Below, in pieces: positions 14,319 to 39,102 of a stretch of DNA of 64,000 nucleotides. Position numbers and translations under genes: made by a program. A model generated the notes under the pieces. That model saw nothing but the letters and a program-made list of their open reading frames with translations, ran no database searches and was not told the DNA's origin. Source of the stretch: Eledone cirrhosa (taxonomy: Eukaryota). Each line of letters begins with the position of its first letter. Positions within the stretch are counted from its first letter, which is position 1. The stretch is taken from NCBI GenBank assembly GCA_964016885.1, contig OZ024757.1, forward strand, positions 23,498,001-23,562,000, written 5' to 3'.

Positions 14319-15027
14319 GAACGGCTGCAACCCCAATAGATTAACAACATCTAGACGGGAAGTAGAACCCTTTCTGTAACTTCCGGCAGAGCCCTATAAA
14401 ACGAATAGCCTTCGGCTCTCTCCCTCTCATTTGCCCTTCCGGCGCCTGGCCTTCGCCAGGTGTCTCGCATTTGCCTGGCAATCAAAACGGTAACTACTAA
14501 CTTTGCTTCATTCTTTCATCTATTTCATTGACATGTCAACTATACTGTTAGATTGTTAATTAAATATTATACACACAAACCATGTCTCCTTGTTACATTC
14601 ATACAACCCAGTATCTTCGCTATATATTCTTTAAAGGATAGTGATGTGTCAGTGTGATACAACGATGCTGTTCTCTGTTAGAAGCTTCAGTTTATAATAT
14701 ATCATATATACTAGAATATAAGCTGAGGAATATGTGACCAAAAAATTGATGGTAAAAGGGTGGGCAGGGGGAGGCTTATATATGCCATCTAAACAATGTG
14801 GTGATTAGCTGCCTCGGCTTATAATATTGGGGTTTGGAATTTTCCACATTTCTCAGATAAAAAACATCCAGTAAAGCTTATTTCATTAACTGATTAGGCT
14901 TATCTTTGCTTTGTATAAAATGTTTTGTTATCTGATCACTCTGGTGCCTGGGAAATAAACTATTTAGGGAAGTTTACCAGTGGTCATGTTCATATAGAGC
15001 CAGAGACTGGCCCTTACACTCAATCCA

Positions 15028-22385: not shown

Positions 22386-23085
22386 CCAAAGATTAATATG
22401 GTTCATTGATTACTCAATGAATATAGTTTTACAATAGATTAAAAGCACTCTACAAAGAAGTTTTCTGGAGTTAGTAATATTATTCAAAATATTAATAAAT
22501 GAATACGTTCACATAATCAAAATATATGTTTTATTATATATATTTCGGAGGTACTGTGCAGTTTTTTCTTACATACAGTTGAGGTATGTCATGCATCGAT
22601 TCATATATTTTATCTGATGAGGGTGTATGGAAAAACAGCACAGTACCTCCGAAATCATCATCATCATCATCGTTTAACGTCCATGTTCCACGCTTGCATG
22701 GGTTTGGACGGGAGTTTTCCCACTTGAGGCAAGAGTGGTTGCCTTGCTCGCATAGGACTGTCTGGTGGGTTTTCTACAGCTGGATGCTCTTCCTAACACC
22801 AACCACATTTACAGTGTGGACTGGGAGGTTTTTACCGTGTTACCTACACGGCCACATTACAGCGTGGACTGTGTGTTTTTTTTTTGTCGTGACACCTACA
22901 CGATCTCATTTGTTTCGGCCTGGATGTTGTGGTACCAACATAACTTTACATTGAGAGGGGTGGTGGTGTGGATGGGGTGGGGTGGTGGGACGGGGGTGTA
23001 TTTTGTTAGAGATGCCTACTGACTGTATAATAAAACATATATTTTGATTATGTGAACATCTTCATTTATTAATATTTTGAATAAT
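22385..23085. mobile_element. Hammerhead family-1 fold-back element interrupted by an RTE insertion
   Basis: Inverted arms 22480-22567 versus 22631-22655 plus 23026-23085; CTGATGA at 22614 and GAAA at 22651. Confidence 0.75.
22656..23025 (-). mobile_element. 5'-truncated RTE LINE copy
   Basis: (ATC)n tail then 3' UTR, colinear with 27476-27812. Confidence 0.85.
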
Positions 23086-36800: not shown

Positions 36801-36974
36801 ATCATTGGATACCATCAGGGTTGCAGGTGTTATATCAGAGTTTTCCTTCTCCTAGAATTCTGCCTTGACAAAGGCTAAGGGGTCATCTCTCCCGGTGATT
36901 TTGGATGGCCATTGACTCTTAAGAGCTCCTTTGCCCTTTGACATATATATATATACATATATATATATGTATAT

Positions 36975-37352
36975 ATTATTCAGAATATTAATAAATGAAG
37001 ACATTCATATAATCAAAATATATGTTTTTATTATATATATTTCGAAGGTACTGTGCTGTTTTTTCAATAGTTCAATTCCAGTATTGACGGCCAATACTGG
37101 AATTGAAGCATCAAGACAGTTGAGGTATGTCATACATCAATTCATGTATTTTATCTGACGAGGACGTACTGAAAAAAACAGCACAGTACCTTCGAAATAT
37201 ATATAATAAAACATATATTTTGATTATGTGAATGTCTTCATTTATTATTATTCGGAATAATAACAACTCCAGAAAACTTACTGTAGAGTGCTTTTAATCT
37301 ATTGTAAAACTATATTCATTGAATAATCAATGAACCATATTAATATTTGGTC
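36975..37352. mobile_element. Hammerhead family-1 fold-back element
   Basis: About 90-bp inverted arms (36975-37066 and 37170-37260), flanked by TA runs. Confidence 0.8.
37144..37214 (+). ncRNA. Minimal type I hammerhead ribozyme (family 1)
   Basis: uuuuau-CUGACGA-GGA(C)GUACUG/CAGUAC(C)UUC-GAAA-UAUAUA-UA^auaaaa; predicted cut after 37205. Confidence 0.75.
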
Positions 37353-37731
37353 ATATATATATATATAATACACAAGATGTCTACTGATGAATGGCTTCAC
37401 CATTTTCCGATGTTAATCAATGGTAACTCTTGATGACTTTTGCTGCATGAAAAGGTACCATCTAGGTCTTATAAAAACTTAGTGGCTAAGTATAATACTT
37501 ATTCTGTCTCTGCATTTTTTTTTTTAACCTATTTATGATGTTCTCTGCAAAATATTGGATATGTGGTTTTCTGTGATATTGGTCGTCTGCAAGCGCTGTA
37601 AGGTCTTGGATTTTTAGTTCTAATTCTTTCATAGAGCTGCATGATCATTAGATATCGATTTCTTCTTTGATATATATATATAGTTATATACGATATTAAA
37701 CAAATGGAAACTATATTTATAAAACCATATT

Positions 37732-37797
37732 TATTTCATTATATATATTTCAGGGATACCATATTAAAAATATGGTATGCCTTCCTCAGACAAAATA
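37732..37797 (-). ncRNA. Minimal type I hammerhead ribozyme (family 2)
   Basis: uauuuugu-CUGAGGA-AGG(C)AUACCAUAUU/AAUAUGGUAU(C)CCU-GAAA-UAUAUA-UA^augaaaua; 8-bp stem I includes two GU pairs. Confidence 0.75.
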
Positions 37798-37959
37798 CAA
37801 TATATAAACCGTTTTATAAATAAATTTGACATACCTAGAACAGTGCAACTTCCATATAGTTATATATATATATAAGCAAAAGGGATATTTAATTTGTTGG
37901 TAATTCAACAAATATATTTATAACAGATTCGAAGCACTCGACAAGTTTTCTGGAGTATA

Positions 37960-38155
37960 ATATCAATGATATTAATAAATGGAAACTATATTTATAAAAC
38001 CATATTTATTCTATTATATATATTTCAAGGGTACCAAAACTTTTGTATGCTCTCATCAGATAAGATGAGAGCATACCAAAGTTTTGCTACCCTTGAAATA
38101 TATATAATAGAATAAATATGGTTTTATAAATATAGTTTCTATTTATTAATATCAT

Positions 38156-38160
<5 letters not shown>
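37960..38160. repeat. About 200-bp palindrome; left arm carries a family-2 hammerhead on the minus strand (38011-38063)
   Basis: Centre ctctcatcagataagatgagag; minus strand reads uuau-CUGAUGA-GAG(C)..(C)CUU-GAAA-UAUAUA-UA-auag. Confidence 0.8.
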
Positions 38161-38191
<31 letters not shown>

Positions 38192-38197
<6 letters not shown>

Positions 38198-38310
38198 GAA
38201 ATGACTTGTACAAGACTAGAACCGTTTCATTCATATGAAATCATCAAGAATGTCCTGATGATTTCATATGAATGAACCAGTTCTAGTCTTGTAGAAGTCA
38301 TTTCTATATA
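38192..38310. repeat. About 120-bp palindrome next to (TA)n with a degenerate hammerhead-like core
   Basis: atagaaatgacttgtacaagactagaac ... gttctagtcttgtagaagtcatttctat. Confidence 0.8.
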
Positions 38311-38384
38311 AAATAAAAATGCCAAAGTGTTTAGTACCTTTTTTAACTGTGGTTGCTCCCCGACACAACTCGAGAATCTACATG

Positions 38385-38431
<47 letters not shown>

Positions 38432-38691
38432 TTCTTGAGAAAATATCATAGCTGAACTGTATTAGATGACGGCAAGAGCTCAGCTATCAGGCTGTAACTC
38501 AAAACATATATATATAGAGAGAGAGATAAAATCCAGACCGCTTGGCACTGTGGTCGGGATTTTACATATCTCTATACCCACTCTACATCTCCGCATGTGT
38601 TGAGTACTTCCATGATTAGTGGTCTTCTCGGTCTCAGCACCACGGACTCTCTCACTCTCCAATTGATGTATGACATACATCAATTCATGTA

Positions 38692-38753
38692 TTTTATCTG
38701 ATGAGGACGTACTGAAAAAACAGCACAGTACCTCCGAAATATATATAATAAAA
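38692..38753 (+). ncRNA. Minimal type I hammerhead ribozyme (family 1, element 38660-38900)
   Basis: uuuuau-CUGAUGA-GGA(C)GUACUG/CAGUAC(C)UCC-GAAA-UAUAUA-UA^auaaaa; predicted cut after 38747. Confidence 0.8.
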
Positions 38754-38919
38754 AATATATTTTGATTATGTGAACGTCTTCATTTATTATTATTTTGAAT
38801 AATATTAATAACTCCGGAAAACTTCTCTGTTCAGTGCTTTTAATCTATTGTAAAACTATATTCATTGAGTAAACAATGAACCTTATTAACATTTGGTTAT
38901 ATATATATATATATATATA

Positions 38920-39102
38920 ACGAAGGAGGTGTGGTAAGGAACCAGATGGACCATAATGCACCAGAGTCCTCAATAGTTAGGGTAGTAGAGTGGGTAATAG
39001 GAAAATGTTAGACCCCGACAGCAGAGCTCAAGCCGTTTCGTAGTCCAGAAATAGCCGTCGAAACGGCTTGAGCTCTGCCGTCGGGGTCTAACATTTTCCT
39101 AT
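38920..39102. mobile_element. Family-4 palindromic element with hammerhead 3' half
   Basis: Inverted repeat 38997-39102; the arm reads GAAA-CGGC..GCCG-UC^gggguc. Confidence 0.6.

What the first reader, a model, noticed from the sequence alone, without database searches (positions are those of the whole stretch)
37144..38753. Stem II covaries between hammerhead subfamilies and keeps a C-C mismatch
Family 1 has GGA-C-GUACUG/CAGUAC-C-UCC, family 2a has AGG-C-AUACCAUAUU/AAUAUGGUAU-C-CCU, and family 2b has GAG-C.../...C-CUU. The sequence differs, but pairing, the C-C mismatch at position 4 and GAAA-UAUAUA-UA are kept. The families are homologous, sharing aggtatgtca upstream and gcactc..aagttttctggagt in the tail. 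This is the best sequence-only evidence that the fold was under selection. The C-C mismatch may mark a subtype or a tertiary contact, which is inference.
Basis: partly seen in the sequence, partly recalled or inferred. Interest (0 to 1): 0.75.

Follow-up and report, generated by a model that had tools for sequence, protein, structure and literature searches.

The report
Penelope hammerheads keep one unpaired cytosine
These are hammerhead-type self-cutting RNA motifs (cutting untested) at the ends of a known kind of jumping gene, with about 100,000 matches in this genome; their second helix changed sequence while keeping its pairing and one unpaired cytosine, which is likely a contact point that controls cutting.

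Summary
The motifs are minimal type I hammerheads in the terminal repeats (pLTRs) of Hydra-clade Penelope-like retroelements. The window copies are 5'-truncated ends, and the genome holds at least 113,000 anchor matches. Stem II covariation is real but statistically moderate. The three best of 1,378 column pairs are stem II pairs (E 0.011-0.018 over 20 proposed pairs; 0.8-1.3 all-versus-all). Changes on inner branches keep pairing 34 of 41 times, against 31 of 94 for private changes. G-U is favoured over A-C on the sense strand, which points to selection on RNA rather than repair of a DNA hairpin. The fixed feature is not C-C. It is an unpaired 5' C (10.4; 94.5% of 81,230) facing C (67%) or U/A (32%, mostly U), and G only at background level (0.5%). 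It spans families whose reverse transcriptases are 49-62% identical. It is absent from the hammerheads of 54 metagenome relatives and from the published Hydra table. A specific contact is inferred, not shown. Hammerheads in these elements are published. This scan had already noted the same mismatch elsewhere in this genome (e1-8670794).

The parts
36974..37069 (-). Inverted partial arm of the family-1 insertion (3' half of stem II, GAAA and tail; no CUGANGA), as in typical Penelope-like insertions
   Evidence: inverted repeats I4/I9; 93-96% to parent L429
37090..37352 (+). 5'-truncated 3' end (pLTR) of a family-1 Hydra-clade element, ending in (TA)n
   Evidence: 91-93% to near-full-length element L429
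37146..37214 (+). Minimal type I hammerhead, family 1: CUGACGA 37155-37161, C10.4=37165, C11.4=37190, GAAA 37194-37197, predicted cut after A37205
37689..37858 (-). 5'-truncated pLTR fragment of the young family-2a element
   Evidence: 99% to the pLTRs of full-length element L061; 20 places 100% identical over 161 nt, the window's own copy included
37731..37798 (-). Minimal type I hammerhead, family 2a: CUGAGGA 37789-37783, A10.1-U11.1, C10.4=37779, C11.4=37755, predicted cut after A37740
37854..38066 (-). Family-2b insertion, long arm; hammerhead CUGAUGA 38059-38053 with C.C at pair 4, decayed pair 5 (A.C) and shortened stem I
   Evidence: 89-93% to L423
38064..38161 (+). Family-2b inverted arm, truncated inside the catalytic core (lacks C3, U4)
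   Evidence: inverted repeat I1
38662..38898 (+). Second family-1 truncated pLTR
   Evidence: 90% to L429
38689..38756 (+). Minimal type I hammerhead, family 1: CUGAUGA 38698-38704, C10.4=38708, C11.4=38732, GAAA 38736-38739, predicted cut after A38747
50818..50886 (+). Further copy of a family-1 sister subfamily (C.C kept, A.C at pair 2)
22605..22654 (+). Decayed family-1 copy cut off after GAAA, C10.4 changed to T

Best explanation
These are minimal type I hammerhead motifs in the terminal repeats of Hydra-clade Penelope-like retroelements; stem II pairing was likely kept by selection on the element's RNA each time it was copied, and the unpaired C at position 10.4 is likely a specific contact (for the element's own protein or for stem I) that would make self-cleavage depend on dimer or protein-bound folding. 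Shown: the motif sits on the sense strand in both terminal repeats of full-length elements, about 200 nt before the start codon and near the 3' end. Most genomic copies are truncated 3' ends in (TA)n. Stem III is an 8-nt palindrome that changes between families while staying self-complementary. Stem II is 3 bp, then C opposite C/U/A, then 4-12 bp. Inferred: tandem copies pair through the palindrome as a double hammerhead and cut after AUA, trimming the element RNA from its co-transcript. Lineages that closed pair 4 or lost C10.4 did not amplify. Least certain: what C10.4 touches.
For: Host element: L061/L062 carry RWR, DKT, YRDD, CxCX5C, CxxC and CxH, the Hydra features of PMC8557442 section 11. 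A relative fetched with this protein (L398) has the same hammerhead, letter for letter, as published Penelope-1_NV. Each hammerhead family lies downstream of such an ORF. Covariation: top 3 of 1,378 pairs. In 11 representatives, 6 of 7 pairs have two-sided changes, 96% of cells pair, and the score is 0.69 against at most 0.19 in slid registers. Keep/break 34/7 inner against 31/63 terminal, p 7e-8; 29/8 against 24/34, p 6e-4, without similarity-picked loci. RNA strand: WC to GU versus WC to AC is 16/4 inner and 23/44 terminal, p 6e-4. Position 4 is unpaired in 72 of 72 copies with both core halves in a position-ordered sample of 79. The 5' base is non-C in only 4,435 of 81,230. G at 11.4 occurs in 527 of 100,049, near the private C>G rate of 0.38%, scattered over subfamilies. 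C10.4 is the only one of 16 stem II columns without an inner-branch change. C.U amplified to about 30,000 matches while U.C appears only as private decay. Dimer: the monomer hammerhead is 3-14 kcal/mol above the monomer minimum in all 14 clusters, and the double hammerhead equals or beats two monomers in 8 of 14. A Penelope-like hammerhead needed the element's protein to cleave in vitro (PMC11167929, passages).
Against: All-versus-all covariation is not significant (E 0.8-1.3), and my null imitates R-scape but is not R-scape. Slid registers also show some inner-branch excess (odds ratios 1.4-4.5 against 9.7). Zero changes at C10.4 has P about 0.014 for one column but about 0.2 over 16 columns, and the column was picked with these families in view. 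In the unbiased subset the neighbouring G10.5 changed to A on only 1 inner branch, so the CpG contrast is weak. No invariant G partner exists outside the core. All other Hydra hammerheads do without the mismatch, so it is not needed for the fold. The double hammerhead was never the two-strand minimum in the energy model. Cleavage and expression are untested. In the Anolis element, cleavage was not needed for insertion in vitro. A10.1-U11.1 and G.U at the first pair depart from the G-C consensus.
Confidence: 0.5

Rival explanations
1. The mismatch is only a hinge or brake. It leaves a 3-bp helix next to the core, loosens stem II and tunes cleavage down, with no base-specific contact.
For: The 3' partner is free among C, U and A. 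Closing the pair stabilises the fold by 6.7 kcal/mol in a natural C-G copy. Penelope-like hammerheads cleave slowly (PMC4209133). Stabilising stem II by one pair lowered activity in another hammerhead (PMC3088659, passage). An earlier scan note proposed a brake (e1-8670794; unchecked lead).
Against: A pure hinge should accept U.C, U.U or A.C and other positions, yet the 5' C and the position stayed fixed in every sampled amplifying lineage.
Confidence: 0.25
2. The stems are under selection, but the unpaired C is a frozen accident of one lineage, or is held by an overlapping sequence signal (promoter or protein site in the terminal repeat DNA) unrelated to the ribozyme.
For: Closing the pair needs a transversion, while nearly all stem II changes are transitions. 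The invariance statistic is weak after correction for 16 columns. A10.7-U11.7 is nearly as constant. The mismatch arose once.
Against: C10.4 sits in a CpG in many families, where it decays privately (8 of 100 in family 2b). It nevertheless survived across reverse transcriptases only 49-62% identical while its neighbours changed.
Confidence: 0.2
3. The apparent covariation comes from DNA-level template switching that makes hairpin arms match, with no selection on RNA.
For: The region is full of fold-back junctions. Several G11.4 copies carry local deletions that fit template switching.
Against: Such repair would close the mismatch and would not favour G-U over A-C on one strand (27 against 5 in 20 cluster consensuses). 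The stems frame an exact hammerhead core on the sense strand of the element.
Confidence: 0.05

Closest known systems
Hydra clade of C-terminal-endonuclease Penelope-like elements and their hammerheads (Craig et al. 2021, PMC8557442; passages, section 11 and supplement tables S1 Hydra sheet and S2 read)
   Same: Protein motifs, (TA)n targets, pLTR with a type I hammerhead, inverted truncated copies; an octopus family (Hydra-1_Obim) is listed.
   Different: No listed Hydra hammerhead has a mismatch inside stem II at position 4. Hydra-1_Obim has an uninterrupted 7-bp stem II and another stem III. The elements here are about 4 kb (published: generally under 3 kb) and very abundant, with an 8-nt fully palindromic stem III.
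Minimal hammerheads of metazoan Penelope-like elements (Cervera and de la Pena 2014, PMC4209133; parts 1-2 of 4 and supplement passages read)
   Same: Palindromic short helix III, long helix II, AU-rich flanks, mostly solo truncated copies, families rich in compensatory changes, dimer model.
   Different: No extra nucleotide after A9. Pair 10.1-11.1 is A-U, G.U or G-C rather than a conserved G-C. The internal C.H loop is new; the nearest precedent is a bulge in helix II of the Drosophila virilis element.
Poseidon element PAc of Anolis (PMC11167929; passages read)
   Same: Hammerhead in the pLTR; two 3' ends of insertions, matching two start sites of reverse transcription.
   Different: Another clade. 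Its cleavage was tested and is protein-assisted; nothing is tested here.
Animal non-LTR retrozymes (bioRxiv 10.64898/2026.07.22.740005, part 1 of 5 read)
   Same: Type I hammerhead in a repeat tied to Penelope-like elements.
   Different: Retrozymes are tandem non-coding units. These copies are truncated ends of coding elements.

Membership tests
Type I minimal hammerhead ribozyme | CUGANGA and GAAA core with A15.1-U16.1 and an NUH site | tested here: met
   right half found in 72 of 79 left-anchored copies; left half exact in 26 of 30 right-anchored family-3 rows, read by eye
Type I minimal hammerhead ribozyme | Stems I, II and III can form around the core | tested here: met
   pairing 0.95-1.00 at stem I pairs 1-5 and 0.81-0.99 at stem II pairs other than 4; covariation
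Type I minimal hammerhead ribozyme | Palindromic short stem III (dimer type) | tested here: met
   279 of 287 rows are AUAUAUAU, AUAUGUAU, AUGCGCAU or AUACGUAU; the anchor allowed only R/Y variation there
Type I minimal hammerhead ribozyme | Conserved G10.1-C11.1 pair | tested here: not met
   weighted A-U 18.6, G.U 17.0, G-C 13.1 of 51; published Hydra hammerheads also deviate
Type I minimal hammerhead ribozyme | Self-cleavage at the predicted site | not testable with these tools
   needs an in vitro assay or raw RNA reads
Hydra-clade Penelope-like element | RWK-like and DKT motifs, RT core, C-terminal GIY-YIG-like domain | tested here: met
   RWR, DKT, YRDD and YVG..F..RY read in L061/L062/L151; Pfam and PDB gave no named hit, so this rests on motifs and relatives
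Hydra-clade Penelope-like element | CxCX5C linker, CxxC and CxH near the end | tested here: met
   CNCRDRSKC, CDLC, CRH
Hydra-clade Penelope-like element | pLTRs, inverted 5'-truncated copy, (TA)n targets | tested here: met
   L061 direct repeats 3,972 bp apart plus an inverted copy; window arms
Hydra-clade Penelope-like element | Placement with published Hydra proteins in a tree | tested here: inconclusive
   published sequences were not in the tree; relatives at 32-38% identity carry published-type Hydra hammerheads
Non-LTR retrozyme | Tandem non-coding monomers each with a hammerhead | tested here: not met
   no tandem unit at the locus; copies map to ends of coding elements

The most novel reading that the evidence does not exclude
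A cephalopod lineage of Penelope-like elements evolved a hammerhead subtype in which a single unpaired cytosine in stem II is the docking site that lets the element's own protein (or the partner ribozyme in the dimer) switch cleavage on. It would be a natural protein-gated hammerhead whose contact has been held while reverse transcriptases drifted to about 50% identity.
Probability: 0.25. Interest if true: 0.65.

Novelty: new variant of a known kind. Interest (0 to 1): 0.33.

Why it matters
What hammerheads do in Penelope-like elements is open: they cleave poorly alone and were dispensable for insertion in vitro in one element. Here a very large natural sample shows that the fold is selected on the RNA strand in lineages that amplify, which argues that the motif matters in vivo. 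It also points to one nucleotide that can be tested with four point variants. The system itself (hammerheads in Hydra-clade elements, including an octopus family) is published, so the gain is a structural variant and a sharp test, not a new kind of element.

Tried and rejected
Rfam at gathering score: no hit. Pfam on five ORF pieces and on four proteins, and a PDB profile search: nothing that names the protein. Fourteen arbitrary 10-kb stretches held none of these families, so sampling by position was dropped for pattern-ordered sampling. Sequencing runs: no RNA holder listed. Contigs of three runs of unknown kind list no variant at 10.4 or 11.4 above 4%, but they are one study and show presence only. 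Search for a G partner of C10.4: G2.9 is not conserved (10 inner-branch changes). An alternative monomer fold pairing the U-rich strand with GAAAUAUA is the minimum in families 1 and 2a but not in 3 or 4, so I did not treat it as a conserved switch. 'A.C at pair 5 defines family 2b' was rejected. The clustering used the whole motif, stem II included; only the trees were blind to stem II. The structure was one column off; one search is the valid count. In one search the row labelled fam1_425 is mislabelled (it groups with family 3), the careful tree and the one-clade test did not finish, and element L427 in the same clade yielded no hammerhead. Lunse et al. (PMC5785218), Martick and Scott (PMC4447102) and Scott et al. 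(PMC4008931) could not be read. The first surveys these variants and may already show such a mismatch; one supplement file of PMC4209133 was not searchable.

Full report
Observation. The quoted stems are all there. Family 1 at 38698 and family 2a at 37789 differ at 5 of 9 paired positions, each change two-sided, and both leave position 4 as C opposite C. The 2b copies in the window are poor witnesses. One arm is cut inside the core, the other has A.C at pair 5, and both fold into a junction hairpin. Among the first 100 of 1,070 genomic 2b matches, 5 have that A and 8 have T at position 4, the two outcomes of CpG decay.

Host element. The window lies in a 3.0-Gb genome. The named relatives of the linked protein are mostly from Argonauta and Octopus, so an octopod is likely. 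Family 2a is young, with 20 places identical over 161 nt, the window's own included. Copies 4 kb apart flank an ORF (L061, L062). The motif lies on the sense strand in both terminal repeats. The protein has RWR, DKT, YRDD, CxCX5C, CxxC and CxH, which match the Hydra clade of Penelope-like elements (PMC8557442, section 11). Pfam and PDB do not name it. However, relatives fetched with it carry published-type Hydra hammerheads, one identical to that of Penelope-1_NV. Parents were found for family 1 (L429), 2b (L422, L423), family 3 (L430) and family 4 (L428). The window pieces are 5'-truncated 3' ends of these, with inverted arms, in (TA)n.

Scale. Exact anchors give 81,230 matches on the left side against 298 controls. 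On the right side they give 67,321 with C, 32,201 with U or A and 527 with G at 11.4, plus 12,985 for family 3. That is at least 113,000 matches, partial arms included. Of the first 100 U/A matches, 91 are U, mostly one family with a UGCGCA palindrome. On the 5' side, 4,435 of 81,230 are not C, and these include unrelated background and a satellite. The G matches are spread over all subfamilies at about the private C>G rate (0.38%).

Covariation. I collected 338 distinct motif contexts by core and stem III only. I set aside 51 from loci picked for G or non-C, and used 245 distinct rows of the remaining 287. Trees were built from flanks only. With a weighted G-test and a null that redistributes substitutions along the tree, the top three of 1,378 pairs are 10.3-11.3, 10.6-11.6 and 10.2-11.2. 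Their E is 0.011-0.018 over 20 proposed pairs but 0.8-1.3 all-versus-all; no other proposed pair passes. Eleven hand-picked representatives give 6 of 7 pairs with two-sided change and 0 of 11 paired at position 4. A branch test is stronger. Changes shared by three or more copies keep pairing 34 times and break it 7 times; private changes keep it 31 times and break it 63 times (p 7e-8). Without the similarity-picked loci the counts are 29/8 and 24/34 (145 rows, p 6e-4). Slid registers show a weaker effect of the same sign, so part of it is strand composition. Steps from Watson-Crick to G.U outnumber steps to A.C 16 to 4 on inner branches, against 23 to 44 on terminal ones (p 6e-4). This fits selection on the sense-strand RNA and not repair of a DNA hairpin.

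The mismatch. Position 4 is unpaired in 72 of 72 complete copies of a position-ordered sample of 79. States in 287 rows are C.C 225, C.U 45, C.A 10, and 7 others. The 5' C is the only stem II column with no inner-branch change (mean of the others 4.3; P about 0.014 alone, about 0.2 over 16 columns). It is shared by families whose reverse transcriptases are 49-62% identical to that of 2a. These families group apart from 77 metagenome relatives in a quick tree. A general descriptor found hammerheads in 54 of those 77 loci, none with a position-4 mismatch, and the published Hydra table has none. The feature is therefore a marker of one lineage and is not needed by hammerheads in general.

Mechanism. 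The 8-nt palindrome cannot make a stable stem III alone. The monomer hammerhead is 3-14 kcal/mol above the monomer minimum in all 14 clusters, while a double hammerhead equals or beats two monomers in 8 of 14, though never the two-strand minimum. This fits the published dimer model (PMC4209133). Natural hammerheads gain speed from contacts between loop II and stem I (PMC12192606 and PMC3088659, passages), and position 4 is about where a canonical 4-bp helix II ends (recalled). A Penelope-like hammerhead from Anolis cleaved only with the element's protein. A fixed 5' C with a free partner suggests that the base is read, but no invariant G exists outside the core, so any contact is non-canonical or with protein. 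I put this reading at 0.5, a hinge or brake at 0.25, an accident or overlapping DNA signal at 0.2, and a DNA artefact at 0.05. The identity of the element and selection on stem II are much more secure (about 0.9 and 0.85).

Novelty. Hammerheads in Penelope-like and Hydra elements, with families full of compensatory changes, are in print. I found no description of this mismatch in searches for hammerhead with octopus or cephalopod, C-C mismatch, unpaired cytosine or Hydra clade, but the most relevant survey (Lunse et al.) was not readable. After I had reached my reading, the scan's notes showed the same family and mismatch on another piece of this genome (e1-8670794). It agrees on identity and copy number, and I took its 'brake' wording as a rival. 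Verdict: a real, lineage-specific variant of a known ribozyme in a known retroelement clade; interest 0.33.

Noticed in passing
window 38182-38320: A 68-bp inverted repeat holding a decayed hammerhead-like motif of another type (CUGAUGA followed by U..U closing of stem II, as in published Hydra hammerheads).
   Followed up: no
window 38997-39102: A 44-bp near-perfect inverted repeat containing GAAAC-GGC...GCC-GUC-GGGGUC, the 3' half of a hammerhead-like motif; the same repeat recurs in L035:2895-3000. It may belong to the rearranged hammerhead family of earlier scan notes.
   Followed up: no
window 36974-37352 and 37854-38161: In both inverted pairs the two arms end at different 3' sites about 100 nt apart, as expected from two start sites of reverse transcription.
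   Followed up: partly
window 37090-38898: Four insertions of three families lie within 1.8 kb, with family 2a abutting the end of family 2b, while 14 arbitrary 10-kb stretches held none: strong clustering in (TA)n-rich DNA.
   Followed up: partly
L420:2560-2665, L421:5566, L431:3765 and 5098, L441:1057: Other hammerhead types without the mismatch occur in the same genome (short stem II; canonical GAAAC-UA-GUC type).
   Followed up: no
L427:2745-5165: A divergent element of the same clade (about 49% identity to the others) with no hammerhead found downstream by my descriptors.
   Followed up: partly
L341-L417: 77 Hydra-type elements in metagenome contigs, 54 with clear hammerheads, mostly with a 9-10 nt stem III that can form in a monomer; many more families than the published table lists.
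   Followed up: partly
L151:6134-8924 (-) and L152: A different Penelope-like element (DKG-type motif region) is nested beside the Hydra-type copy.
   Followed up: no
G000:C1:92985740-92991583: A tandem array of about 657-bp units carries TATTTTATCTGATGA followed by TTCT; it inflates the non-C count.
   Followed up: no
window 13678-14625: A young tandem repeat of 325-bp units (2.9 copies, 98% matches), the size of a retrozyme-like unit; not examined.
   Followed up: no
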